This document shows, piece by piece, positions 14,031 to 27,996 of a stretch of 64,000 nt of DNA. Made by a program: the position numbers and the translations under genes. Numbering within the stretch: position 1 is the first letter of the stretch; each line of letters opens with the position of its first letter. This stretch comes from an uncultured Bacteroides sp. (GTDB lineage: Bacteria > Bacteroidota > Bacteroidia > Bacteroidales > Bacteroidaceae): NCBI GenBank assembly GCA_944322345.1, contig CALUOO010000007.1, positions 57,198-121,197 on the forward strand, read 5' to 3'. A model generated the notes under the pieces. The model was given only the letters and a program-made list of their open reading frames with translations, searched no databases and was not told the DNA's origin.

Positions 14031-14465
14031 ATGAAAGAATATAAATATAAAATCAACGGTAACTTATATAAAGTTACTATCGGAGATATCGAAGACAATA
14101 TTGCTCATGTAGAAGTTAACGGCACACATTACCAAGTAGAAATGGAAAAACCGGCTAAAGCACCGGTTGTAAAGCCTGTTGTGCGCCCTACCTCTACAGC
14201 TCCTGCAGCTCCAACAACACAAGTAGTAAAACCTGCGACTCCTTCAGGAGGAAAATCAGGCGTGAAATCCCCTCTGCCTGGTGTCATTCTTGAAATAAAA
14301 GTGAACGTTGGTGACACTGTAAAGAAAGGACAAACAATCATCATTCTTGAAGCCATGAAAATGGAAAATAACATTAATGCTGATAAAGACGGAAAGATTA
14401 CCGCTATTAATGTAAACAAAGGCGATTCTGTTCTCGAAGGCACTGATCTAGTAATTATTGAATAA
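14031..14465 (+). CDS. mmdC: Biotin carboxyl carrier subunit
   Basis: Ala/Pro-rich linker and the EAMKMEN biotinylation motif. Confidence 0.95.
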   Translation: MKEYKYKINGNLYKVTIGDIEDNIAHVEVNGTHYQVEMEKPAKAPVVKPVVRPTSTAPAAPTTQVVKPATPSGGKSGVKSPLPGVILEIKVNVGDTVKKGQTIIILEAMKMENNINADKDGKITAINVNKGDSVLEGTDLVIIE

Positions 14466-14466
14466 T

Positions 14467-15627
14467 ATGGGAGATTTCATTAACTTTTTAGGAAATAATC
14501 TGGCTGATTTCTGGACATATACCGGATTTGCGAATGCAACCGCTGGACATGTTGTCATGATTCTGGTAGGTTTGTTTTTCATCTATCTGGCAGTAGCTAA
14601 AGAATTTGAGCCAATGCTACTGATTCCTATCGGATTCGGTATCTTAATCGGTAATATTCCTTTCAACATGGAAGCCGGCCTGAAAGTCGGTATCTATGAA
14701 GAAGGATCCGTGTTAAATATATTATATCAAGGAGTAACTTCAGGTTGGTATCCGCCTCTCATCTTCCTTGGTATCGGAGCAATGACCGACTTTTCTGCAC
14801 TGATTTCAAACCCCAAATTGATGTTAATCGGAGCTGCAGCCCAGTTTGGTATTTTCGGTGCTTATATGATTGCACTAGCTATTGGTTTCGACCCGATGCA
14901 GGCAGGAGCTATCGGTATTATTGGTGGAGCAGATGGACCGACCGCTATCTTCCTTTCATCCAAATTGGCACCCAATCTGATGGGAGCAATCGCCGTATCA
15001 GCCTACTCATATATGGCATTGGTACCCGTTATACAACCTCCTATCATGCGTTTACTTACCACTAAGAACGAACGTCTGATTCGCATGAAGCCTCCTCGTG
15101 CAGTGTCTCATACAGAAAAAGTGGTATTCCCCATCATTGGTCTGTTGTTGACAACTTTCTTGGTTCCCTCAGGTCTGCCATTGCTAGGCATGTTATTCTT
15201 TGGCAATTTATTGAAAGAAAGTGGAGTAACTCGCCGTCTTGCCAACACAGCCAGCGGTCCTTTGATTGATACAATTACCATTCTGTTAGGACTGACTGTA
15301 GGAGCTTCTACCCAAGCATCTGAGTTCCTGACTTGGGATTCTATCAAGATATTCATCCTTGGAGCATTGTCGTTCATTATTGCTACAGCTTCAGGAGTTA
15401 TCTTTGTAAAAATCTTCAACCTCTTCCTGAAAAAAGGTAACAAGATTAATCCGCTGATCGGTAATGCTGGTGTATCTGCAGTTCCTGACTCTGCACGTAT
15501 TTCACAAGTAGTAGGTTTGGAATACGATCCTACAAACTACCTGTTGATGCATGCCATGGGACCGAATGTAGCAGGTGTTATTGGTTCAGCAGTTGCAGCC
15601 GGTATATTGCTGGGATTCCTGATGTAA
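14467..15627 (+). CDS. mmdB: Na+-translocating decarboxylase beta subunit
   Basis: FEPMLLIPIGFG, IGIIGGADGPT and HAMGPNVAGVIGS; ATG at 14467 preferred over TTG at 14458. Confidence 0.95.
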   Translation: MGDFINFLGNNLADFWTYTGFANATAGHVVMILVGLFFIYLAVAKEFEPMLLIPIGFGILIGNIPFNMEAGLKVGIYEEGSVLNILYQGVTSGWYPPLIFLGIGAMTDFSALISNPKLMLIGAAAQFGIFGAYMIALAIGFDPMQAGAIGIIGGADGPTAIFLSSKLAPNLMGAIAVSAYSYMALVPVIQPPIMRLLTTKNERLIRMKPPRAVSHTEKVVFPIIGLLLTTFLVPSGLPLLGMLFFGNLLKESGVTRRLANTASGPLIDTITILLGLTVGASTQASEFLTWDSIKIFILGALSFIIATASGVIFVKIFNLFLKKGNKINPLIGNAGVSAVPDSARISQVVGLEYDPTNYLLMHAMGPNVAGVIGSAVAAGILLGFLM

Positions 15628-17594: not shown

Positions 17595-17685
17595 TTCGTA
17601 TCACGTAGGTATTCCGTTCGTATCACTTAAGTCAACCGTTCGTATCACTAATGTTATCCTTTCGTATCACTAAGGTGATACGAAA
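17595..17685. repeat. Four TTCGTATCAC direct repeats at 22-bp period, ending in an inverted copy
   Basis: Copies at 17595, 17617, 17639 and 17661; perfect hairpin TTTCGTATCAC-TAAG-GTGATACGAAA at 17660-17685. Confidence 0.9.
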
Positions 17686-17859: not shown

Positions 17860-17867
17860 TAACTTTG
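17860..17867 (+). promoter_or_regulatory. -7 promoter element for the accessory operon leader
   Basis: TAACTTTG matches TAnnTTTG, about 430 nt upstream of the first gene. Confidence 0.6.
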
Positions 17868-17871
17868 CACC

Positions 17872-18204
17872 ATATTCCTGCGCCGACAATCCGTAGAGAT
17901 GGAAGGAGTGGGAATGTAGATTTATACATAAAAGGCGTTTACTTGACGCTTTGATTTTGACAATGTAAGAATCTCGCAAATTCAAACGGTTAGTCAAAGA
18001 CAAAGCAACGGTGAATGCTCTCGGGGTGTTTTTATATGCATCTGTGTACTCTTATACCTATTTATATAATAAGGTATAAAAGGAAAGGGTGTATACTATA
18101 CAGACATCGGCGTGGGGCTTTCGACGTTGCTCGTTTCGACTAACCGGGCAATGCGAGAGCCTTTACATTGTGGAACGAGCGACAGGATCGGCTCCACGTT
18201 TTTT
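17872..18204 (+). ncRNA. Putative structured leader RNA / attenuator
   Basis: Nested complementary blocks 17960-68/18163-71, 17972-78/18152-58, 17987-95/18138-46, 18004-10/18125-31, 18041-48/18097-104 and 18052-59/18072-79; a terminator-like GTGGA...TCCAC plus T-run at 18170-18204. Confidence 0.55.
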
Positions 18205-18294
18205 GTGTATAGGGGAAAGAATGTTTTATAAACCTCTTTGTTTTGGTAGCCGACAAAGAAGCATGGAAAATCGTGATTACCAACAACTGATAAA

Positions 18295-19782
18295 ATGGAC
18301 TCTGTAATCAATAAATACATTGCTGTTTATCTTGACAGCTATGTCAGGTCGTTTCGTAGTTCCTGTCGTAGTAGATATACGGTAAATATTGGTGGTCTTG
18401 CCAATTTTATTGCTATAGATGACCTAGACGTTACTTTTCTTATCAATAAGCTACATTTATACGATTTTGATGTAGTTATTTCCAAAGGGCAGGATATTAT
18501 TGATGAGATTCAGGTAGAATATACTTGTGAAAATGATGGGAAGTGTGAACTTTTTGAATATAAAATAGAGAGCCTGATTTCAATTATAAGTTTGTCAAGT
18601 AAAACAGGTATTTCCATTGTTGGAATACTCGTTATGCAAATTATCTCAAACATTATTTGTAAATCCAAGACTATATATAAAGCAATTGTACTTGATCTTG
18701 ACGACACTGTATGGAAAGGTACACTTGCAGAAGATGGTATTGAGGCAATCAAACAAAATTTAAGTTCAATTGATGCTATACCCTTCGTTATGTTTATGCG
18801 TTTCGTTCGGTTGGCAGCAAAAGAGTTGGGATTATATATAGCAATATGCTCACGCAACAACCTTGATGATGTGCAGGCTGCTATTGATAAATTTAATGAG
18901 AATGAATTTCCATTAAAAGGGCAGATAGATTGTATTGTTGCCAATTATAATGATAAAAGCAAGAACATAAAAGCCATAGCTCAGCAATTGTCGATATTAA
19001 CAAATGCTTGTGTTTTTATTGATGATAACCCATTAGTTCGTGACGAGGTTAGAAGCAATTTGCCTGAAGTATTTGTGCCAGACTGGGAGAATCACGATGG
19101 TCTGCTAACATTGTTGGAGGCTTGCTGTATTTTTGATAGATTTGAACTTTCGTTGAAATCAAGAAACCGCAAACGATTATATGCGGTTTTACAGCAGGAG
19201 CGTGAAAAAAGTTGTCTTCCACAACTATTCGTAAAAGTTAATGATGATATAAACCATGTTCAGGCTAGAAAGTTATATGCAAAATCAAACCAATTTAAGC
19301 TTATTTCTGAACAAATTAACTTTTCAAATACAAAATCTATATCCTTTGAGCTATTGCGTTCTAATGGCGAAAATTTAGGGATTTGTTCAACTATTACATA
19401 TTCAATTGATGGTTCAATATGCAGTATTCTAAATTGGGCTATCAGCTGTCGGTATTTTGAAATTGGTTTGGAAGAATTTATCATTTTATACTTGAAAAAT
19501 CACTTACCAAAAGTGTCTTTTCAATTTGCTTGTCAATTCAATAAAGACAATAGAAAAATACAGAGTTTTATAGATAAATATTATGGATGCGTATTTTCAG
19601 ATAGTTGTGATAGCGTTCCTACCGACTGTGATTTATTTATAGAACACTTTAAATATGAGCGTTGTTTTTATAATCATCTGTATGTACTTCTAAGAAACAG
19701 AAATAAATTCAATGTATATTATATTAATAACGAATCAGTTGATATATTAAAAAGTAATACAAAATTAGAGCTTTATGAATAA
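18295..19782 (+). CDS. FkbH-like HAD-IIIC phosphatase
   Basis: HAD motifs I DLDDTVWKG, II CSRN, III DKS and IV FIDDNP; FkbH-like C-terminal KSNQF and WAISCRYF. Confidence 0.85.
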   Translation: MDSVINKYIAVYLDSYVRSFRSSCRSRYTVNIGGLANFIAIDDLDVTFLINKLHLYDFDVVISKGQDIIDEIQVEYTCENDGKCELFEYKIESLISIISLSSKTGISIVGILVMQIISNIICKSKTIYKAIVLDLDDTVWKGTLAEDGIEAIKQNLSSIDAIPFVMFMRFVRLAAKELGLYIAICSRNNLDDVQAAIDKFNENEFPLKGQIDCIVANYNDKSKNIKAIAQQLSILTNACVFIDDNPLVRDEVRSNLPEVFVPDWENHDGLLTLLEACCIFDRFELSLKSRNRKRLYAVLQQEREKSCLPQLFVKVNDDINHVQARKLYAKSNQFKLISEQINFSNTKSISFELLRSNGENLGICSTITYSIDGSICSILNWAISCRYFEIGLEEFIILYLKNHLPKVSFQFACQFNKDNRKIQSFIDKYYGCVFSDSCDSVPTDCDLFIEHFKYERCFYNHLYVLLRNRNKFNVYYINNESVDILKSNTKLELYE

Positions 19783-20563
19783 AAAACACATATATACCAT
19801 TGGATACACCTTGTTTCAAAAAGGAAGTTCAATAGATATTGAGAATATGTTTAATATATTGAAAAGATATAATGTGAATTTCTTGGTTGATGTTCGCTCC
19901 GTACCATTTTCAAAACAATATCCACAATGCAATGCTGACAATATGAAAATAGTAGGAAAGAGTTTAGGCATACAGTACATGAATATGCCAGAAATTGGAG
20001 CAAAAGCAAATAACCAGCAAGATGTTTTTTCCAAGGCATCAGACATATTCTTTGAGAATGAGTTTGTTTCCATTTTCCCCATAGCAAAAAGTTATCGCCC
20101 AGAAAAAACAGAATTACATGCTGATGATGAAATAATCGATTTCCGCAAATTTAGGCATGATGAGTATTTTGTAAGAGGATTAAAACGCATTGAAGATGCT
20201 TATAATAAAGATTTTACATTATGCTTAATGTGTAGCGAGAAAAAGCCGATGGATTGTCACAGATATTTCTTGATAAGTAAAGCCCTTGAACAGAGATTCG
20301 GAGATTGGCTTGAAGTAAAACATATTATCAAACAATCAGATGATGAGATAGGATATATCTTAAATACTGAATTGGATAAACAACTTGAGAAATTTGTTTG
20401 TGAAGAAAAAAATGTATTGAGTATGATGTTCAAAAATGAAATCCTTAAAAATTATTTTGGAGAAACAGAACAAGAGAAACTTAATGACTTCTGCGATAGA
20501 TACTGGAATCTACTGCATGGATGGAAAAGGTTTAACCACAATAATAACGAAAATTATGATTAA
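19775..20563 (+). CDS. DUF488 family protein (copy 1)
   Basis: IYTIGYT, LVDVRSVPFS and LMCSEKKPMDCHR motifs; 8-nt overlap with the upstream gene. Confidence 0.85.
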   Translation: MNKKHIYTIGYTLFQKGSSIDIENMFNILKRYNVNFLVDVRSVPFSKQYPQCNADNMKIVGKSLGIQYMNMPEIGAKANNQQDVFSKASDIFFENEFVSIFPIAKSYRPEKTELHADDEIIDFRKFRHDEYFVRGLKRIEDAYNKDFTLCLMCSEKKPMDCHRYFLISKALEQRFGDWLEVKHIIKQSDDEIGYILNTELDKQLEKFVCEEKNVLSMMFKNEILKNYFGETEQEKLNDFCDRYWNLLHGWKRFNHNNNENYD

Positions 20564-21020
20564 ATTATTTAACATTGGCTTCACACAAAAGACCGCAAAA
20601 GAATTTTTCGGAATCATTAAAACAAATCGTATTAATTGCCTTGTGGATATACGACTAAATCCTAACGGGCAATTATCACGTTTTGCATTTGAAAAAGATT
20701 TACCATTTTTCCTTTCGGAATTGTCAAACGGTTGCAAATACAAACATCGTATTGACTTGGCACCGACTAAGGAATTACTAAAAGAGGTTAGGGATAATGC
20801 TTCACCTATGAGTAAGAACTATAAACTGTTTGAGGTTGCTTACAGAAAACAACTCGAAACTAAATCTCGTATTTCTAATTTTGCAGATGAATTTGGGATG
20901 TATGAAAACGTTGTGTTACTGTGCTCTGAGCCAACAAACGAAAAGTGCCATAGAAGAGTTCTTAGTGAACTACTGCTTGAAAAATTTGGAGATCGCATTA
21001 AATTTGGAGGAAATTTATAA
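20556..21020 (+). CDS. DUF488 family protein (copy 2, different subtype)
   Basis: Start MIKLFNIGFTQKTAKEFF at 20556; LVDIRLNP, LAPTKELL and LLCSEPTNEKCHRR motifs. Confidence 0.85.
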   Translation: MIKLFNIGFTQKTAKEFFGIIKTNRINCLVDIRLNPNGQLSRFAFEKDLPFFLSELSNGCKYKHRIDLAPTKELLKEVRDNASPMSKNYKLFEVAYRKQLETKSRISNFADEFGMYENVVLLCSEPTNEKCHRRVLSELLLEKFGDRIKFGGNL

Positions 21021-21661
21021 TGAGAAAACGTGTATTTCTTCTTGCTGTTAGTTGCAAAAACGGAGGGTTATGTCCGGGCGGAATAGACCTAGATAATCCT
21101 AAAGAGTGGATTCGTATAGTTCGAGACGATGGAAATTCAGGCGCTGTTCAAGGTTATGAAATAGATTTTGCCAAGCCGCTTGATATTATAGAGTTTGACG
21201 GCCGCCCAATGCCTCAAGGTAAGCAAAAAGAAAATTGGGTAATTGATAATCACTCCTGTAAAAAAATCAGTACGGAATCTATAAAAAGAGTTGTACAAGC
21301 TTTTAAAGAGTATGGCTATCATGGTTTTTGGAATAACGGCTACTCTTTTCTAAGAGAAAATGAATTAGAAAACGTGACACAACCATCAGAGTCTATTCTG
21401 CTTGTCTCCGATGTTAAGCTTTATAAAAACGACTACGGAAAGGCTAAGATTGATTTTACATGGCATAGATTACCTTATCCAATAAAAGGAATATCATTAA
21501 CTGACCAAGATTTCTACGATAAACTAGATGATAATGAGATCTGTTATAAGCACGCTATCATTGTCATATCTATACCTAAGAATGCAGATTGGACACACCC
21601 TGAAACAGGAGAAAAGAGAGCATATAAGTTTGTCAGTAAAGTATTTGGTTCTCACAATTGA
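21020..21661 (+). CDS. Dual OB-fold-like protein
   Basis: N-terminus LLAVSCKNGGLCPGGID...WIRIV resembles the LANSxKxGGxCxAG...WIRP signature of dual-OB proteins encoded beside DUF488 pairs; TAATG overlap with the upstream gene. Confidence 0.7.
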   Translation: MRKRVFLLAVSCKNGGLCPGGIDLDNPKEWIRIVRDDGNSGAVQGYEIDFAKPLDIIEFDGRPMPQGKQKENWVIDNHSCKKISTESIKRVVQAFKEYGYHGFWNNGYSFLRENELENVTQPSESILLVSDVKLYKNDYGKAKIDFTWHRLPYPIKGISLTDQDFYDKLDDNEICYKHAIIVISIPKNADWTHPETGEKRAYKFVSKVFGSHN

Positions 21662-21790
21662 TTTTTACACATCAAATTTCAAGTCATTATAGAGGAAAGA
21701 GACCTGATACAATGAAATTTATATATTCATATTTTCCATCACTTCAGGTTATTGATATATTAGGAAATGAGGTTGTGTGAATATCTCCTA

Positions 21791-21880
21791 TTGATTGAAA
21801 TAAAAATTGCCAATCATAAAGTAGAAAATATATTCAATACAGACAAGGTAACACTCTTCAAATATAATTGTGGAATATGA
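21791..21880 (+). pseudogene. C-terminal remnant paralogous to the 22782-23687 gene
   Basis: Translates LIEIKIANHKVENIFNTDKVTLFKYNCGI*, versus LVEIKIANHKVESIFNVDKVILFKYHCGIWF* in the intact gene. Confidence 0.8.
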
Positions 21881-21933
21881 TTTTAATCTTAAACGAACTT
21901 ATATCAAAACAGATTTTATTCGGGGGAAAGTAT

Positions 21934-22743
21934 ATGAAAACAATAACCTACTTACTCACCGCTTTCTTATGCCTTACCTCTTGTACAAGCAAACCAAAAG
22001 AAAGCAAAAAAGAGAATCAGTCTGTACTTCTGACAAAAGAAGAGCAGGAACAATGCATTCAGACACTATCTTTGTATTTGGAAAAGGATTCAGTCCGCAT
22101 AGCAGAGTCTGAAGAATATGCTAAATTGCTTGAAGAAGAATTGCCCGAAACGCCGGGAATGGAAAATGAATCCAACTCAATGGGAAATGATGATTTCTAC
22201 AGCAATAACATAGTACATATCGATTCCATCATGTTAAAGGGAATAGAATTGTCAAAGCAGAATAAACCCAAAGAATTACTTCTATTACTTGAAAAAGATC
22301 TGAAAAATATCCATGCACATCCCGGTAATCTACTTGAAAATGAAATACAACTGCACAGCATAATCTCTATGCTCTACTCAAAGTTCTATGCAGAGAAAGA
22401 GGCTGCCATCAAAAGTATTGCTCTTTTTGAAATAACAAGGCTTCATTCATTAACATTAATAGCCTTAAATGCAGGAGTACCCTATAGCTACCCCACAACG
22501 CTTTACGGTCTTTCTCAACTTTATAAAGAAACAGGTAATTATCCTGTTGCCATAGAAAGAGGGAGAGAGTTGTGTAATCTGATGGAACAGTTACATACAG
22601 AACAAAAAGAATCTAAAGATTACATTTACGCTCTGATGGAGCTTACCGACATTTATAAGGAAGCAAAAATGAAAGCACAACAGGACAGTTGTAACAGAAT
22701 CCTACAAGCATCACCTACTTTCAAAAGCATATACGAAGAATAA
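21934..22743 (+). CDS. Predicted lipoprotein, helical/TPR-like C-terminus
   Basis: Start MKTITYLLTAFLCLTSC (lipobox) at 21934; LYGLSQLYKETGNYPVAIE is TPR-like. Confidence 0.75.
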   Translation: MKTITYLLTAFLCLTSCTSKPKESKKENQSVLLTKEEQEQCIQTLSLYLEKDSVRIAESEEYAKLLEEELPETPGMENESNSMGNDDFYSNNIVHIDSIMLKGIELSKQNKPKELLLLLEKDLKNIHAHPGNLLENEIQLHSIISMLYSKFYAEKEAAIKSIALFEITRLHSLTLIALNAGVPYSYPTTLYGLSQLYKETGNYPVAIERGRELCNLMEQLHTEQKESKDYIYALMELTDIYKEAKMKAQQDSCNRILQASPTFKSIYEE

Positions 22744-22781
22744 TAGATAGTTACTTACTATAAATTTTAGAACAAAAAAAT

Positions 22782-23687
22782 ATGAAATTTATACTCATCA
22801 CATACGGCATTTCGTGGCTTATACTTTTAATTGCATTTGCCGTATTAAAATTAAGAAAAAGTATTTCTCGCGAAAAGAGAGAATGGTATAAAGATGCATT
22901 ACTGATACTTTTTGCACCAATTTTTGCACCAATTATAATACTAATCATCCCTATATTTTTGATAGGTGAGCTAATTGAGAATAAAAAACAAAAGAAATTA
23001 AATATGGAATGGGAGAAGGAGAAAAAGGAAGAAGAGAAAAAAAAGCTACTCGCTCAACAGAATTATCATTCCGCCATAAATCTAAACAGTACCCAATATA
23101 CACAGGATTATGCAGATATAGCATCTGCTCTTTTTAGTTTAGCAAAATCCCCCCAATATGACAAGTTATTATCTTGTCTAAACGAGCTGACACTACAATC
23201 TGGTTGGATTCTAGACGTGGATTTATGCAAAAAAAGAGGCATAGGTGATGATAGTCGTCTAATGGTAACTAAGGGTGATAACACTGATTTTAAAATATGG
23301 GATCATATAGAGGTAAATGACAGCTCAATGGCTGCATGGCAGATTTATCTTCTACACTCTCTTTGGCATGCACTTCCGCATTTTTGGCATGGAGGATATA
23401 ACAGACGTTCATATATCTTCACCAGTAAAGATATTCCTAATATAGAGTTTATAAGGTCTGAGCAGCGTAATAAGCTTATGTCAATAATCTATGATAAATT
23501 AGAGAATCTAACTCCTGAAATCATAAAGTATAATGACATGTATTATGTCACATGTTGCTACTGGTCTGATTGGGACGGACTTATTAGAGAATTGGTTGAA
23601 ATAAAAATTGCCAATCATAAAGTAGAAAGCATATTCAATGTAGACAAAGTCATACTATTCAAATATCATTGTGGAATATGGTTTTAA
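22782..23687 (+). CDS. Hypothetical membrane-anchored protein
   Basis: 301 aa; two N-terminal hydrophobic helices, a charged linker, then a Trp-rich soluble domain. Confidence 0.8.
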   Translation: MKFILITYGISWLILLIAFAVLKLRKSISREKREWYKDALLILFAPIFAPIIILIIPIFLIGELIENKKQKKLNMEWEKEKKEEEKKKLLAQQNYHSAINLNSTQYTQDYADIASALFSLAKSPQYDKLLSCLNELTLQSGWILDVDLCKKRGIGDDSRLMVTKGDNTDFKIWDHIEVNDSSMAAWQIYLLHSLWHALPHFWHGGYNRRSYIFTSKDIPNIEFIRSEQRNKLMSIIYDKLENLTPEIIKYNDMYYVTCCYWSDWDGLIRELVEIKIANHKVESIFNVDKVILFKYHCGIWF

Positions 23688-23734
23688 TCTTAAACAAACT
23701 TAAATTCAAACAGATCATATTCGGAAACAAATAT

Positions 23735-23848
23735 ATGAAAACAATAATCTACTTACTCACCACTTTCTTATGCTTTACCGCTTGTACAAGCAAACCGAAA
23801 GAAAGCAAAAAAGAAAATCTGCTTGTTCTTTTAACGAATAAAGAATGA
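23735..23848 (+). pseudogene. Truncated paralog of the 21934 lipoprotein (37 aa)
   Basis: MKTIIYLLTTFLCFTACTSKPKESKKENLLVLLTNKE*, versus MKTITYLLTAFLCLTSCTSKPKESKKENQSVLLTKEE in the intact gene. Confidence 0.8.
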
Positions 23849-24000: not shown

Positions 24001-24807
24001 ATGCACCAATCCCAATCTCCCAAAGTTCTTATAGGAGCTATCGCAGGCGATGTAATCGGTTCTATCTACGAACGGATACGAACAAAGTCTGTAGACTTCA
24101 AACTCTTCACCCAATGGTCAACGTTCACCGACGATACGGTGATGACAGTTGCCAATGCCGAATGGCTGCTGACTGGCAACAGTTTACCTGCAATCATGCA
24201 GAAATATGGCAAACAGTATCCACGTGCCGGATATGGACGGAATTTTTGGGAATGGCTGAACACAGAATCTCCCAAACCCTACAACAGCTGGGGAAATGGT
24301 TCAGCCATGCGGGTGAGTCCTGCAGGATGGGCGTTCGACACTTTGGAAGAGACGCTTGAGACCGCTAAAAGAAGTGCAGAAATCACTCATAGCCATCCCG
24401 AAGGAATCAAAGGAGCACAGGCTACAGCCGCATGCATCTATCTGGCACGTACAGGAAATTCGAAACAGGAAATCAGAAAATACATAGAAGAAACATTTGG
24501 ATACAACCTAAACAGAAGTTGCGACGAAATAAGACCGGGCTATACATTCGACATCAGCTGTCAAGGTTCTGTGCCTGAAGCAATCATTACTTTCTTGGAA
24601 AGCAATAGCTTTGAACAAGCTATCCGGCTGGCAGTCTCCTTAGGTGGCGATGCCGATACAATGGGAGCAATCGCAGGAAGTATAGCCGAAGCATATTATA
24701 AAGAAATACCTACACATATATATGAAGAGGTTCTGAAACGATTGCCCGAAGAGTTTATCAATGTCATGTCACGTTTTTATAAAAGATTTATAGAAACGCA
24801 GAAATAA
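24001..24807 (+). CDS. ADP-ribosylglycohydrolase (ARH/DraG family)
   Basis: GAIAGDVIG, FTDDTVMT, GNGSAMRVSP, THSHPEG and GGDADTMGAIAG motifs. Confidence 0.93.
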   Translation: MHQSQSPKVLIGAIAGDVIGSIYERIRTKSVDFKLFTQWSTFTDDTVMTVANAEWLLTGNSLPAIMQKYGKQYPRAGYGRNFWEWLNTESPKPYNSWGNGSAMRVSPAGWAFDTLEETLETAKRSAEITHSHPEGIKGAQATAACIYLARTGNSKQEIRKYIEETFGYNLNRSCDEIRPGYTFDISCQGSVPEAIITFLESNSFEQAIRLAVSLGGDADTMGAIAGSIAEAYYKEIPTHIYEEVLKRLPEEFINVMSRFYKRFIETQK

Positions 24808-24925: not shown

Positions 24926-26161
24926 TTATGATAAGAAAGAGATTAAAACACCTGCAGCAACAGCTGAACCAATAACACCAGAAATGTTACTTGCCATACA
25001 ATATTGCAACACATGGTTTTTAGGATCATACTTAAGAGCTATCTCGTTTGCAACACGGCTTGCCATTGGAACAGCACTCAAACCTGTCGCACCAATCAAC
25101 GGATTGATTTTCTTTTTAGAGAAAAGATTGACGAGTTTCACAAACAGAATACCTCCGGCAATAGACAAGGCGAAAGCAAGGAATCCGCCGATAACAATAC
25201 CAATAGTGGTCCAGTTTAAGAAAGCCTCTGTCGTCATGGTTGCTCCTACTGAAAGGCCAAGGAAAATAGTGGCAGCATTCATAATGCTATTCGAAGCAGC
25301 ATCGAACAGACGAGAAGTATTACTTCCAATTTCTTTTACCAGATTACCAAACATTAGCATACCGATCAGAGGAACAGCACTCGGCACAAATAAAGCAACC
25401 ACAGTAGTAACTACAATCGGGAAAATAATCTTCAACACACGCAGATTCTTAATCTCAGTTTTTGAAGGATACTTCTTTTCCTGTTCTTTCATGTTGATAC
25501 TCAGTTCCTTTTTTGTACACAGTAATTTTACTACCAGTGGAATAATTACCGGAACTAACGCCATATAGGAATAAGCAGCAATAGCGATAGGGCCTAACAA
25601 ATGTGGAGCCAGTTTAATGGTAGTAAAAATGGCTGTCGGGCCATCTGCTCCACCGATAATTCCTAAAGAAGCAGCCTCACGAGGAGTAAATCCCATCAGA
25701 ATGGCCACCAAAAGTACTGTAAAGATACCCAATTGGGCTGCTGCACCAAATATAGACAGACGAAGATTACGCAACATCGGACCAAAATCGGTCAAAGCAC
25801 CAACCCCCATAAAGATGATCGGCGGAAGAAATCCTGTCTTAATCAGCATATAATAGATGAAGTTCATCAGTCCCAGCTCGTGGGCGATTTCATGCAAAGG
25901 CATTTCCCAGATGTTCTTCATCACTCCGTTCACAGCCACCATACCATTCTCATCTGCCTGTATGACACCCATTTCCCCACCAGGGAAATTAGCAAGTAAA
26001 ACCCCAAAAGCAATAGGAATCAGCAATAGAGGCTCATACTGCTTCTTGATGCCCAAATAGAGCAGAATGAAGGCAATGGCATACATTATCAGAAACTGCG
26101 GATCAGCAATAATATTGCTGAACGCAGTCATGTCGTACAACTTTTCAAATATCTCGTTCAT
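24926..26161 (-). CDS. oadB: Oxaloacetate decarboxylase (Na+ pump) beta subunit
   Basis: YEPLLLIPIAFG, GIIGGADGPT and MASNISGVIGS motifs. Confidence 0.93.
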   Translation of the reverse strand: MNEIFEKLYDMTAFSNIIADPQFLIMYAIAFILLYLGIKKQYEPLLLIPIAFGVLLANFPGGEMGVIQADENGMVAVNGVMKNIWEMPLHEIAHELGLMNFIYYMLIKTGFLPPIIFMGVGALTDFGPMLRNLRLSIFGAAAQLGIFTVLLVAILMGFTPREAASLGIIGGADGPTAIFTTIKLAPHLLGPIAIAAYSYMALVPVIIPLVVKLLCTKKELSINMKEQEKKYPSKTEIKNLRVLKIIFPIVVTTVVALFVPSAVPLIGMLMFGNLVKEIGSNTSRLFDAASNSIMNAATIFLGLSVGATMTTEAFLNWTTIGIVIGGFLAFALSIAGGILFVKLVNLFSKKKINPLIGATGLSAVPMASRVANEIALKYDPKNHVLQYCMASNISGVIGSAVAAGVLISFLS

Positions 26162-27996
26162 TATCCAATCTTCATTAATACATCATCTTCTGATACAGAG
26201 TCTCCCGGATTTACACAGATGGCAGTCACCGTACCACTGAATTCTGCACGAATGGCATTATAAGTCTTCATTGCCTCAATATAGCAGATTACGTCACCTT
26301 CCTTCACTACATCGCCTACCTTTAAGGCGGTTTCGCTGGCATTCTTCACCAGGAAGAACTTACCTTCCAGTGGTGAAATAACGTCTTTTCCTTCTCCGGT
26401 TGGAGCTGCTGTTCCACCTGCAGGAGCAATCGGAAGCTCAGCATCACCGTATGCCACCGTCACACGATATGCTTGTCCGTCGACTTGTACCGTCAGTGTC
26501 TTAGGTTTAACATCTTCCAACGGAGACTTGTCCTTCTCGGCACGACGTTTGGCAACATCGGCAAGAAAATCTTCTTTTGCCTTACCGCTCTTGTAGGCTT
26601 CGTACTGAGCCGGATGCATAGCATATTCGAAGAGTTCTTCATCATCCTCGCCGGTCTCCCACTTCTTTTCTTTCATCATCTTGCGATATTTATCAAGAGC
26701 ATCCGGATAGTTGTCCTGAGGATTACCTTCGAAGAACTTACGTCCCTCACGTTCAGCTTTTTCAACAAGCTCAGGAGCCAGTTTTCCGGGCAAACGCCCT
26801 GCTTTGCCAAGAATCATATCCCAGATGTCGTCGGCAATCATGCCCCAACGTTCTTTTCCTTTCTCCATCGCCATCACGTTCATCAGTGCAAGGTTCTTGA
26901 CATACTGGCTAAACGGAGTTACCAATGGAGGATAGCCTACACGAGGCCATACGTATGCCACTTCGTTGAACAGTTTTATGAGCAACTGGTCTTGTGTCAT
27001 GAACGGAAGGTTGCGTTTTGCCTTATATTTATTGATGGATTCAAGATTGGATTCGAGGTCGGCCATCAGGCTGCCCATCATACCGCCGGGAAGACCGGGA
27101 CCTATCAGCAGGGAATTCATCAGACGGTTGCGCGGACTGATATAGAGACCGAGGAAGTCATCCATAAACTCCTGAATCATACCACGTACTTTCATGTATG
27201 CCTCCATGTTGATTTCCGGCACTTGGAATCCGGCATCCTTCAGCATTGCCTGCACGCTGAGCAGGTCAGCATGTCCTGTACCCCACGACAATGGTTCCAT
27301 ACCAACGTCTACATAGTCGCAACCTGCCTCACAGACTTCAAGAATGCTTGCCATATTGAATCCGGGACCGGCATGGCTGTGATACTGCACCGGTATGTCG
27401 GGATGAGCCGCCTTGATGTTGGCAACAATCTTTCCTAACGAAACAGGGCGTCCGATACCTGCCATATCTTTGATGCAAATCTCGTCCGCCCCCAGTTTAA
27501 TCAGCTCCAACGCCATGTTGGTGTAGTATTCCACCGTATGAATGGGTGAGTGAGTGATACAGAGCGAACACTGCGAAATCATTCCTGCCTCCTTGGCATA
27601 AGTGATGGAAGGAGCGATGTTGCGGATATCATTCAAGCCACAGAATGTACGAGTAATGTCCGTACCTTGGGCTTTCTTTACTTTATAAAACAATTTGCGG
27701 ACATCTGCAGGAACGGGGCTCATGCGAAGGCCATTCAGAGCACGGTCGAGCATGTGTGTCTGTATGCCGGCTTCGTGGAAAGGCTTTGTCCATTCGCGCA
27801 CGGCACGGTTCGGATTTTCTCCAAACAACAGATTTACTTGTTCAAATCCTCCTCCATTGGTTTCTACACGGGCAAAGCAACCCATTTCAATGATGGCAGG
27901 AGCCACTTTTACGAGCTGGTCTACACGGGGTACATATTTTCCGGCTGACTGCCACATATCCCGGAACACCAGACTAAACTTTACTTCTTTCTTCAT
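26161..27996 (-). CDS. oadA: Oxaloacetate decarboxylase alpha / pyruvate carboxylase subunit B
   Basis: FRDMWQS, IKDMAG, HSHAGPG, PGGM, PPLVTPFSQ and C-terminal biotinyl motif EAMKTYN. Confidence 0.9.
   Translation of the reverse strand: MKKEVKFSLVFRDMWQSAGKYVPRVDQLVKVAPAIIEMGCFARVETNGGGFEQVNLLFGENPNRAVREWTKPFHEAGIQTHMLDRALNGLRMSPVPADVRKLFYKVKKAQGTDITRTFCGLNDIRNIAPSITYAKEAGMISQCSLCITHSPIHTVEYYTNMALELIKLGADEICIKDMAGIGRPVSLGKIVANIKAAHPDIPVQYHSHAGPGFNMASILEVCEAGCDYVDVGMEPLSWGTGHADLLSVQAMLKDAGFQVPEINMEAYMKVRGMIQEFMDDFLGLYISPRNRLMNSLLIGPGLPGGMMGSLMADLESNLESINKYKAKRNLPFMTQDQLLIKLFNEVAYVWPRVGYPPLVTPFSQYVKNLALMNVMAMEKGKERWGMIADDIWDMILGKAGRLPGKLAPELVEKAEREGRKFFEGNPQDNYPDALDKYRKMMKEKKWETGEDDEELFEYAMHPAQYEAYKSGKAKEDFLADVAKRRAEKDKSPLEDVKPKTLTVQVDGQAYRVTVAYGDAELPIAPAGGTAAPTGEGKDVISPLEGKFFLVKNASETALKVGDVVKEGDVICYIEAMKTYNAIRAEFSGTVTAICVNPGDSVSEDDVLMKIG

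What the first reader, a model, noticed from the sequence alone, without database searches (positions are those of the whole stretch)
18295..21661. Candidate new system: FkbH-like HAD phosphatase + two DUF488 proteins + dual-OB-like protein in one coupled operon
Seen: four genes with overlapping stop/start codons (8, 8 and 1 nt), in AT-rich DNA. Gene 1 keeps all four HAD motifs (DLDDT, CSRN, K, IDDN) and an FkbH-like C-terminus but has a short N-terminal domain. Genes 2 and 3 are divergent DUF488 subtypes that both keep CxE...CHR motifs; gene 2 has a long insertion between its DVR motif and its CxE motif. Gene 4 resembles dual-OB proteins. Established, as I recall it: FkbH enzymes transfer glycerate from 1,3-bisphosphoglycerate to an acyl carrier protein in PKS or surface-polymer clusters, and DUF488 has been computationally linked to Cys-dependent rhodanese/phosphatase folds and to dual-OB partners in predicted conflict operons. 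There is no ACP, PKS or glycosyltransferase here, so the FkbH-like enzyme is out of its usual context. Inference: a nucleic-acid-sensing (OB) defence module in which Cys-phosphatase-like DUF488s and a repurposed glyceryl/phosphoryl transferase modify or de-modify nucleotide or protein targets. The HAD addition is the part I do not recognise from described systems.
Basis: partly seen in the sequence, partly recalled or inferred. Interest (0 to 1): 0.8.

Follow-up and report, generated by a model that had tools for sequence, protein, structure and literature searches.

The report
DUF488-DuOB defence candidate with FkbH-like enzyme
Three of the four genes are an already catalogued but untested candidate anti-phage cassette (two DUF488 enzymes plus a double-OB nucleic-acid binder), and the fourth, an FkbH-like phosphatase/acyl-transfer enzyme without its usual carrier protein, is a constant part of one mobile subtype, giving a first biochemical handle on what these cassettes do.

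Summary
Four translationally coupled genes at 18295-21661 (+) encode a HAD-IIIC/FkbH-like protein, two DUF488 proteins and a DuOB protein, in low-GC DNA. Genes 2-4 are the PADLOC candidate system PDC-M45, which is catalogued but untested, so the trio is not new.

The HAD gene is an integral fourth component of one subtype:
- All 29 loci from other species with readable downstream DNA carry HAD, DUF488, DUF488 and DuOB in the same order. Two are natural HAD-DUF488 fusions.
- None of 48 ordinary FkbH-like loci has DUF488 or DuOB.
- The four-gene loci form one clade in all three partner-protein trees.
- The enzyme keeps every FkbH catalytic residue, including the Ser-Cys-Arg cysteine. It has a changed carrier-binding loop and a new 125-residue N-terminal domain.
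- No carrier protein lies nearby (0 of 39 loci, against 42 of 48 ordinary loci).

The cassette is sporadic (about 1-3% of species) and often lies beside integrases. Many copies have a long hairpin leader.

Defence function and chemistry are inferred, not shown. I could not read the paper that defined DuOB, so the novelty of the HAD link is provisional. I rate it a new variant of a known kind, of moderate to high interest.

The parts
17862..17869 (+). TAACTTTG, a Bacteroidetes-type -7 promoter box (TAnnTTTG). It is the likely operon promoter and would give a 5' leader of about 420 nt.
   Evidence: Read directly in the sequence. A TAnnTTTG box lies 210-435 nt upstream of the HAD start in 19 of 33 related loci. 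That TAnnTTTG is the -7 consensus rests on my own knowledge of Bacteroides promoters.
17900..18215 (+). Structured leader: a long imperfect inverted repeat that folds as an RNA rod of about 275 nt. Its 3' part (18108-18206) can also form its own 28-bp hairpin followed by a U run, like a terminator. It is associated with the cassette but is not universal.
   Evidence: MFE -133 kcal/mol, z -5.6. It is 59-70% identical in nucleotides in L037, L050, L032 and L052, about the same as the coding DNA. A covariance model finds it in 6 loci strongly and 2 weakly. No Rfam family matches. Only 1 compensatory pair was seen.
18295..19782 (+). Gene 1: an FkbH-like enzyme with three parts. These are a subfamily-specific N-terminal alpha/beta domain (aa 1-125), a capless HAD-IIIC phosphatase domain (about aa 128-300) and a GNAT-like C-terminal domain carrying S384-C385-R386 and E393.
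19775..20563 (+). Gene 2: a DUF488 enzyme (PDC-M45B type). It carries a subtype-specific insertion of about 30 residues (aa about 77-107) and a C-terminal extension with the motif NDFCDRYWNLLHGWK (aa 237-251). In two other loci it is fused in frame to the HAD protein.
20556..21020 (+). Gene 3: a DUF488 enzyme of the 'active N3' subclade (PDC-M45C type).
21020..21661 (+). Gene 4: a DuOB (dual OB-fold) protein (PDC-M45A type), the presumed nucleic-acid-binding subunit.
   Evidence: No solved relative by sequence.

Best explanation
This is a four-gene, horizontally mobile subtype of the DUF488-DUF488-DuOB cassette (PADLOC candidate PDC-M45). The most likely role is a conflict or anti-phage module acting on nucleic-acid termini or nucleotides.

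Shown here:
- An ancestral cassette acquired an FkbH-like enzyme once, and every sampled descendant has kept it.
- That enzyme keeps the full FkbH catalytic set: the HAD Asp nucleophile motifs plus the Ser-Cys-Arg cysteine of the GNAT-like domain.
- It has lost the acyl-carrier-protein partner that ordinary FkbH-like genes have.
- It has changed the loop that in GNAT folds binds the pantetheine pyrophosphate (generic SCRV-x-G-R, here SCR[YF]-F-E-I).
- It has swapped its N-terminal domain.
- Its DUF488 neighbour has gained matching insertions, and in two lineages the two proteins are fused.

Inferred:
- DuOB holds a single-stranded nucleic acid or an end.
- The two Cys-dependent DUF488 enzymes carry out phospho- or sugar-phosphate transfer on it.
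- The FkbH-like enzyme docks on DUF488 gene 2. There it either (i) loads a small phospho-acyl group, such as (phospho)glyceryl from an acyl phosphate, onto Cys385, dephosphorylates it and passes it to a non-ACP acceptor in the complex, or (ii) uses its open, capless HAD site to remove a phosphate from the bound macromolecule, as PNKP does.
- A long hairpin leader probably controls expression.

My odds: HAD is an integral subunit, about 0.9. The cassette has a defence or conflict role, about 0.5-0.6. Chemistry (i) specifically, about 0.15-0.2.
For: Family assignments and the PDC-M45 match.

Co-conservation:
- 29 of 29 subfamily loci with readable downstream DNA have HAD, DUF488, DUF488 and DuOB in the same order, in Bacteroidota of several orders, an Ignavibacteriales genome and three MAGs labelled Oscillospiraceae, Roseburia and 'bacterium'. 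0 of 48 ordinary FkbH-like loci have DUF488 or DuOB.
- Six further Bacteroidaceae contigs carry the same cassette at six different chromosomal sites, each beside an integrase.
- The genes overlap or abut in every locus examined.
- In-frame HAD-DUF488 fusions exist in L034 and P0120.
- The four-gene loci form one clade in the DuOB (99/99), DUF488-B (100/100) and DUF488-C (86/76) trees.

The enzyme:
- D134, D136, T138, S/T186, N188, K221, D243, S384, C385, E393 are kept in all 42 subfamily members, and D244 and R386 in 41 and 40. The same positions are invariant or nearly so in 48 ordinary FkbH-likes.
- The generic G389 and R390 are replaced by E and I.
- The model shows a HAD plus GNAT fold (pLDDT 84).
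- Carrier-like ORFs lie next to 42 of 48 ordinary loci and 0 of 39 subfamily loci.
- This is the only FkbH-like gene, and these are the only DUF488 genes, in the genome.

Distribution:
- DuOB is in 10 of 401 Bacteroidota and 10 of 351 Acidobacteriota genomes. The HAD N-terminal domain is in 4 of 301 genomes of the same family.
- The cassette lies in low-GC DNA in an interval that differs in relatives.
- Neighbours include integrases, transposases and a few defence or candidate-defence genes.
Against: - No experiment exists for any DUF488-DuOB cassette. PDC-M45 is one of 145 untested candidates (bioRxiv 10.1101/2024.01.29.577857).
- Defence-gene enrichment among neighbours is modest, about 7 of 113 ORFs.
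- Most DuOB cassettes (18 of 20 found from the DuOB side) work without any HAD, so it is an accessory to the core chemistry, not a requirement.
- A housekeeping ACP acting in trans cannot be excluded.
- The donor and acceptor of any acyl group are unknown.
- The N-terminal domain has no recognisable relative.
- No phage or plasmid record carries the subtype.
- Several hosts are MAGs, so the cross-phylum spread partly rests on binning.
Confidence: 0.6

Rival explanations
1. The cassette is a cargo module that modifies or repairs the nucleic acid of its own host or mobile element. Examples would be end healing, a protective end or base adduct, or anti-restriction. It would not be an immune system that senses and stops phage. 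The FkbH-like enzyme would supply the group that is attached.
For: The cassette travels with integrase-borne islets inserted at many sites. Neighbours are richer in mobile-element genes than in defence genes. From memory of its abstract, the paper that defined the clade predicted DNA-end processing and nucleic-acid modification (Burroughs and Aravind 2023, not readable here).
Against: PDC-M45 was picked because it is found embedded in BREX, DISARM or type I RM loci. A few defence genes do lie nearby. No partner nuclease or restriction component that would read such a mark is conserved beside the cassette.
Confidence: 0.22
2. The HAD protein is only a phosphatase that reverses or limits the DUF488 reaction, acting as a safety or antitoxin-like subunit. 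The GNAT-like domain would serve as a scaffold with no acyl transfer.
For: Capless HAD enzymes typically dephosphorylate macromolecules such as PNKP, CTD phosphatases and MDP-1 (my own knowledge of the superfamily). MDP-1 is among the top fold matches. Three-gene cassettes function without the HAD gene. The pantetheine-binding loop is altered.
Against: S384 and C385 are kept in all 42 subfamily members and R386 in 40, despite only about 35-45% overall identity. That is hard to explain for a mere scaffold.
Confidence: 0.13
3. The HAD/FkbH-like gene is an unrelated surface-polysaccharide or polyketide enzyme that merely lies next to the trio.
For: Ordinary FkbH-like genes are common in polysaccharide and PKS clusters, and the closest solved relative, BF1531, is a Bacteroides fragilis protein.
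Against: 29 of 29 loci show co-occurrence in fixed order. The genes overlap, fusions exist, the loci form a single clade, and no carrier protein is present in any related locus. Glycosyltransferase and PKS genes were not systematically searched for. One Bacteroidaceae contig (L001) has polysaccharide genes about 4.5 kb downstream, outside the islet.
Confidence: 0.02

Closest known systems
PADLOC phage-defence candidate PDC-M45 (components A = DuOB, B = DUF488, C = DUF488). It comes from the 'guilt-by-embedding' screen of Payne et al., bioRxiv 10.1101/2024.01.29.577857.
   Same: Genes 4, 2 and 3 match PDC-M45A (E 4e-12), PDC-M45B (6e-27) and PDC-M45C (2e-35). Like the three-gene cassettes sampled here, this one is compact, sporadic and mobile.
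   Different: - PDC-M45 has three genes and no PADLOC model matches the HAD protein.
- This subtype has a fourth, always-present enzyme.
- Its DUF488-B carries extra segments.
- It often has a long structured leader.
- PDC-M45 itself is untested.
FkbH / OzmB-type glyceryl-ACP-forming enzymes (TIGR01686). From my own knowledge: a HAD domain plus a Cys-bearing C-terminal domain take 1,3-bisphosphoglycerate, form glyceryl-S-enzyme and pass the glyceryl group to an ACP (Dorrestein et al. 2006).
   Same: - HAD motifs I-IV.
- The SCR cysteine and E393.
- A HAD plus GNAT-like two-domain fold.
   Different: - It scores below the family cut-off (99.3 against 146.65 bits).
- The N-terminal domain is different and shorter.
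- The generic G389/R390 are replaced.
- No carrier protein lies in any of 39 loci, against 42 of 48 ordinary loci.
- Its partners are DUF488 and DuOB.
The RapZ-C/DUF488/DUF4326 clade and the DuOB-linked DUF488-N3 systems predicted by Burroughs and Aravind (NAR Genom Bioinform 2023, lqad029). I recall the abstract only; the paper is not held.
   Same: It uses the same domain families (Pfam DUF488, DUF488-N3a, DuOB). The predicted theme is also the same: Cys-dependent phosphate or sugar chemistry on nucleic-acid ends in biological conflicts.
   Different: I could not check whether that paper lists a HAD/FkbH-like partner. If it does, the link is already known computationally.
Polynucleotide kinase-phosphatase (PNKP) end-healing enzymes, as a functional analogy only.
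   Same: Both have a capless HAD phosphatase working beside nucleic-acid-binding and phosphotransfer modules.
   Different: There is no kinase or ligase domain. The HAD domain here belongs to the IIIC/FkbH branch and is joined to a Cys-bearing GNAT-like domain.

Membership tests
PADLOC PDC-M45 | Co-located genes matching the component models A (DuOB), B (DUF488) and C (DUF488) | tested here: met
   gene 4 matches PDC-M45A (4.1e-12, partial coverage 3-128), gene 2 matches PDC-M45B (5.7e-27) and gene 3 matches PDC-M45C (2e-35). The genes are adjacent and overlapping.
PADLOC PDC-M45 | Three-gene composition | tested here: not met
   A fourth gene (HAD/FkbH-like) is translationally coupled and present in 29 of 29 related loci. 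No PADLOC model covers it.
Pfam DuOB (PF22557) | Score above the gathering cut-off over the full model | tested here: met
   119.4 bits against a cut-off of 27, profile positions 1-210 of 210.
Pfam DUF488 (PF04343) / DUF488-N3a (PF22751) | Score above the cut-off, with the conserved DxR and CxE...CHR motifs | tested here: met
   gene 2 scores 69.1 bits (in two stretches, because of the insertion). Gene 3 scores 66.7 bits, and 41.8 bits for N3a (cut-off 27).
HAD-IIIC phosphatases (TIGR01681) | Score above the cut-off, with HAD motifs I-IV | tested here: met
   47.7 bits against 35.75. DLDDT, CSRN, K221 and IDDN are located.
FkbH (TIGR01686), glyceryl-ACP-forming enzymes | Score above the curated cut-off | tested here: not met
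   99.3 bits against 146.65.
FkbH (TIGR01686), glyceryl-ACP-forming enzymes | HAD catalytic residues plus the conserved Ser-Cys-Arg cysteine in a GNAT-like C-terminal domain | tested here: met
   (the residues are invariant or nearly so in 48 ordinary and 42 subfamily sequences). (HAD plus GNAT fold).
FkbH (TIGR01686), glyceryl-ACP-forming enzymes | A dedicated acyl carrier protein (or carrier domain) as acceptor, encoded nearby | tested here: not met
   0 of 39 subfamily loci against 42 of 48 ordinary loci. Pfam PP-binding was found in all 7 ORFs tested of the first carrier type, 5 of them above the family cut-off. A second type, in 14 loci, was not confirmed by Pfam. A housekeeping ACP acting in trans cannot be excluded.
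FkbH (TIGR01686), glyceryl-ACP-forming enzymes | Uses 1,3-bisphosphoglycerate and forms a glyceryl-S-enzyme intermediate | not testable with these tools
   Needs enzyme assays and intact-protein mass spectrometry.
Validated anti-phage defence system | Protection against phage on expression, dependent on the catalytic residues | not testable with these tools
   Only context is available: sporadic distribution, integrase-borne islets and a few defence neighbours.

The most novel reading that the evidence does not exclude
An FkbH-type enzyme that no longer serves an acyl carrier protein loads a small acyl or phospho-acyl group, such as glyceryl from 1,3-bisphosphoglycerate, on its conserved cysteine. 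It then hands the group, through the DUF488 enzymes, to a nucleic-acid end or nucleotide held by the DuOB protein. That would be a previously unknown acylation or 'capping' of nucleic acid, used in phage defence and fed directly from a glycolytic intermediate.
Probability: 0.12. Interest if true: 0.9.

Novelty: new variant of a known kind. Interest (0 to 1): 0.62.

Why it matters
No experiment on a DUF488 protein or a DUF488-DuOB cassette turned up in the searchable literature or in the solved-structure searches. They are catalogued only as an untested defence candidate.

This subtype ties them, by strict co-inheritance and by gene fusion, to an enzyme family whose chemistry is understood: acyl-phosphate capture on a cysteine plus HAD dephosphorylation. 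That turns an open question into defined experiments:
- look for an adduct on Cys385;
- look for its transfer to DUF488, DuOB or oligonucleotides;
- compare phage protection with and without the HAD gene.

It is also a clear case of a biosynthetic loading enzyme being re-used without its carrier protein. The cassette is common in human-gut Bacteroidaceae, where few defence systems have been tested.

Tried and rejected
- **Key paper not readable.** Burroughs and Aravind 2023 is not held by DOI or PMC id. Full-text searches for DUF488, DuOB, PDC-M45 and FkbH plus defence found nothing that describes this cassette. The papers that test PDC systems did not test M45.
- **N-terminal domain of the HAD protein.** The model is confident (pLDDT 88.8), but no PDB fold match is better than E 0.014 or TM 0.37. 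It also has no Pfam or NCBIfam hit.
- **Solved structures by sequence.** None for DuOB or for DUF488 gene 3.
- **Phage and plasmid collections.** They hold only ordinary FkbH-like genes, and no DuOB in phages.
- **Rfam.** No family matches the leader.
- **Earlier lead of a carrier-KASIII partner in Acidobacteria.** Ten DuOB loci sampled from 351 Acidobacteriota genomes were not reproducing it, and I found no HAD gene there either.
- **Empty-site comparison.** The closest genomes held are only about 84% identical and carry three ORFs of 350, 1010 and 432 aa instead, so I can show a variable interval but not a clean insertion.
- **Leader as a universal part.** Rejected. It is strong in about half of the four-gene loci and absent from the environmental branch.
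- **Complex prediction.** Not possible with the tools at hand.


Full report
**1. What is in the sequence**

Four + strand ORFs lie at 18295-19782, 19775-20563, 20556-21020 and 21020-21661. They overlap by 8, 8 and 1 nt. The third start is the ATG at 20556; the longest ORF in that frame starts at 20436. Homologues confirm the first start at 18295. The cassette is 32.8% GC, against 39.5% for the rest of the window. A low-GC stretch runs from about 17.4 to 24 kb.

**2. Family assignments**

- Gene 1 passes the HAD-IIIC model (TIGR01681, 47.7 bits, cut-off 35.75). It matches the FkbH model over residues 127-403 at 99.3 bits, below the 146.65 cut-off.
- Genes 2 and 3 pass Pfam DUF488. Gene 3 also passes DUF488-N3a.
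- Gene 4 matches Pfam DuOB end to end at 119 bits.
- In PADLOC-DB, genes 2, 3 and 4 match PDC-M45B, PDC-M45C and PDC-M45A. Gene 1 matches nothing meaningful.
- PDC-M45 is one of 145 'phage defence candidates'. They were chosen because they are found embedded in BREX, DISARM or type I RM loci, and they are explicitly untested (bioRxiv 10.1101/2024.01.29.577857). Later papers that tested some PDCs did not include M45.

So the trio is catalogued. The open question is the HAD gene.

**3. Is the HAD gene part of the unit?**

*From the HAD side.* A profile search of 1.84 billion cluster representatives shows a sharp break. About 38 representatives score below 1e-30. The full-length ones among them (about 20) also cover the N-terminal 125 residues. 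Below that come thousands of ordinary FkbH-like proteins of about 600 aa that align only to residues about 105-400.

A scan of 185,579 species genomes returned 80 loci.
- 33 belong to the specific subfamily. All 29 with readable downstream DNA carry HAD, DUF488-B, DUF488-C and DuOB in that order, with overlapping or abutting genes.
- The other 4 subfamily loci are cut by contig ends.
- None of the 47 ordinary FkbH-like loci from that scan, or of a 48th counted with them, has a DUF488 or DuOB gene.
- Hosts are Prevotella, Bacteroides, Muribaculaceae, Marinilabiliales, Flavobacteriales, Chitinophagales and Ignavibacteriales, plus MAGs labelled Oscillospiraceae and Roseburia.
- HAD protein identity to the window runs from 42% to 74%.

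Six further Bacteroidaceae gut contigs carry one 68%-identical version at six different chromosomal sites. Each copy lies next to a tyrosine integrase. All six also share a 510-aa unknown gene downstream, and most also an HTH_17 gene.

Two independent in-frame HAD-DUF488-B fusions exist: L034 (783 aa) and P0120 (719 aa).

*From the DuOB side.*
- DuOB occurs in 10 of 401 genomes of the window's phylum and in 10 of 351 Acidobacteriota genomes.
- Only the window's genome and one other (L018) have the HAD gene.
- The rest are three-gene cassettes or remnants of them, in the order B-C-DuOB or DuOB-B-C. They lie next to genes such as MazF, a Mob relaxase or DUF4268.

*Trees.* In maximum-likelihood trees of DuOB, DUF488-B and DUF488-C, the 30 four-gene loci form one clade. 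Support is 99/99, 100/100 and 86/76. With midpoint rooting the clade sits among the three-gene diversity.

The simplest reading is one acquisition of the HAD gene, no observed loss in intact cassettes, and later horizontal spread.

**4. What kind of enzyme is gene 1?**

- The AlphaFold model (pLDDT 84) has three parts: an N-terminal alpha/beta domain (1-125), a HAD domain and a C-terminal alpha/beta domain.
- Fold search matches the HAD part to BF1531 (3slr) and MDP-1. It matches the C-terminal part to GNAT acyltransferase folds such as AprA GNAT, CBU0801 and RimI. By sequence, 3slr is the only solved relative.
- Aligned with 48 ordinary FkbH-like proteins, the window protein keeps the positions that are invariant or nearly so in them: D134, D136, T138, S186, N188, K221, D243, D244, and S384-C385-R386 with E393.
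- Most of these are invariant in 42 subfamily members and the rest nearly so.
- Two changes separate the subfamily. The generic motif S-C-R-V-x-G-R-x-V-E becomes S-C-R-[YF]-F-E-I-G-L-E, so G389 becomes E and R390 becomes I. The N-terminal domain is replaced by a shorter one with no detectable relative.
- In GNAT folds the R-x-x-G-x-G/A loop binds the pyrophosphate of CoA or pantetheine. That is my own knowledge of the fold. Reading the change as loss of carrier binding is inference.
- The inference fits the gene context. A carrier-protein-like small ORF lies beside 42 of 48 ordinary FkbH-like genes and beside 0 of 39 subfamily genes. Of the 42, 28 are of a PP-binding type: Pfam found PP-binding in all 7 tested, 5 above the family cut-off. 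The other 14 are a second 'LDSLG' type that Pfam did not confirm.
- The genome has no other FkbH-like gene and no other DUF488 gene.

**5. Changes in the partner**

DUF488-B of the four-gene clade differs from its three-gene counterparts in two ways.
- It has a conserved insertion of about 30 residues (QDVFSKASDIFFE..IFPI.KS.RPE, window aa 77-107).
- It has a C-terminal extension ending in NDFCDRYWNL[LM]HGWK (aa 237-251).

The DVRS and MCSE..P..CHR motifs are kept in both types. Together with the fusions, this points to DUF488-B as the docking partner of the HAD protein. That is inference.

**6. Setting**

- The subfamily's N-terminal domain is found in only 4 of 301 species genomes of the same family, each in a different genus. 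Two of the four are fragments.
- Three sampled same-genus genomes keep rpmE and the downstream decarboxylase genes, about 6 kb apart. Two of them examined carry three ORFs of 350, 1010 and 432 aa between them, where this genome has the cassette.
- Among 113 ORFs flanking 30 four-gene loci, the commonest families are integrases (5) and transposases (4). Defence or candidate-defence models hit PDC-S01 (2), TmtA, PDC-S02, AbiD, a type II methylase and a Cas-associated PD-DExK protein.

This is a mobile-element setting with modest defence association.

**7. The leader**

- A Bacteroidetes-type -7 box (TAACTTTG, 17862-17869) precedes a region of about 420 nt that folds into a single rod of about 275 nt (-133 kcal/mol, z -5.6).
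- Its 3' part can also form a 28-bp hairpin followed by a U run.
- The region is 59-70% identical in four loci whose coding DNA is 60-74% identical.
- A covariance model finds it in 6 loci strongly and 2 weakly.
- Upstream regions of the four-gene loci fall into three sequence clusters. Fourteen loci, with members from all three clusters, share GCGTGGG(G)C, then 64-76 nt, then CCACG[CT]TT.
- Fifteen of 26 upstream regions (including the window's and two copies of one Bacteroidaceae element) fold with z of -3.5 or lower, against 2 of 15 three-gene loci. These are rough mononucleotide shuffles.
- A TAnnTTTG box lies 210-435 nt upstream of the HAD start in 19 of 33 loci.
- Rfam has no match, and covariation support is minimal.

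I treat the leader as a frequent but not universal regulatory part. It could be an attenuator or a processing site.

**8. Mechanism**

*Shown:* composition, co-inheritance, retention of both catalytic centres of gene 1, absence of a carrier protein, and co-variation with DUF488-B.

*Established knowledge (from memory):*
- FkbH/OzmB enzymes capture 1,3-bisphosphoglycerate, form a cysteine-bound glyceryl intermediate after HAD dephosphorylation, and pass it to an ACP.
- Capless HAD enzymes usually act on macromolecule-borne phosphates.
- DUF488 belongs to the Cys-dependent rhodanese-phosphatase superfamily and has been predicted to act on sugar-phosphate groups at nucleic-acid ends.

*Inference:* DuOB holds a single-stranded nucleic acid or an end, and the DUF488 pair processes it. 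The FkbH-like enzyme, docked on DUF488-B, then does one of two things.
- It delivers a small acyl or phospho-acyl group to a non-ACP acceptor in the complex.
- It removes a phosphate from the bound substrate.

Conservation of Cys385 favours the first option, or a hybrid of the two. The fact that most DuOB cassettes lack any HAD gene shows it modulates the core reaction rather than defining it.

**9. Comparison and novelty**

The trio is a member of PDC-M45. Gene 1 is FkbH-like in fold and residues. It fails three membership features of the FkbH family as it is usually found: the model cut-off, the ACP partner and the N-terminal architecture.

I found no description of a HAD/FkbH partner for DUF488-DuOB cassettes in the searchable literature or in PADLOC. 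I could not read Burroughs and Aravind 2023, which defined DuOB and the DUF488-N3 clades, so the novelty claim is provisional.

Verdict: a new variant of a known, untested kind. Interest is moderate to high because it offers a concrete biochemical entry point.

Noticed in passing
window 17598-17685: Four direct copies of TTCGTATCAC plus one inverted copy (GTGATACGAA), just after the rpmE terminator at the left edge of the low-GC stretch. This could be a recombinase- or regulator-binding array, or a relic of a mobile-element end. It has no match in the related loci.
   Followed up: partly
window 21790-22043 and 23591-23844: A direct repeat of about 254 bp at 85% identity brackets the lipoprotein and membrane-protein gene pair (21868-23687) just downstream of the cassette. 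The pair is not found next to the cassette in other loci, so it is not part of the system.
   Followed up: partly
window 24001-24807: An ADP-ribosylglycohydrolase gene (PF03747, 125 bits) lies at the right edge of the low-GC stretch. It is not conserved beside the cassette elsewhere. A link to the ADP-ribose-type chemistry proposed for the DUF488 clade is untested.
   Followed up: no
window 19588-19710 (HAD aa about 432-472): A Cys-rich insertion (DSCDSVP..CD..I.HF) in the C-terminal tail of the HAD protein. It is present in only a subset of homologues and has low model confidence. Its role is unknown.
   Followed up: no
L017, L019-L024 (DUF488-B of three-gene cassettes): The C-terminal tails of three-gene DUF488-B proteins carry short D/Q-x-x-LF or DMF motifs that resemble sliding-clamp-binding peptides. 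The window's protein lacks this segment.
   Followed up: no
L136:6217-7518 and L143:9850-11337: In two of ten Acidobacteriota loci, AMP-binding (acyl-adenylate-forming) enzyme genes lie directly upstream of three-gene DuOB-DUF488 cassettes on the same strand. This may be chance or another acyl-activating partner.
   Followed up: no
L118-L120 (same-genus genomes, between rpmE and the decarboxylase genes): These genomes carry three ORFs of 350, 1010 and 432 aa (sizes typical of an RND efflux operon; not annotated here) where this genome has the cassette. The interval is therefore a variable spot.
   Followed up: partly
window 14031-15627 and 24926-27996: Two paralogous sets of decarboxylase-type membrane and biotin-carrier genes flank the region. 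The beta-subunit-like proteins are 44% identical.
   Followed up: no
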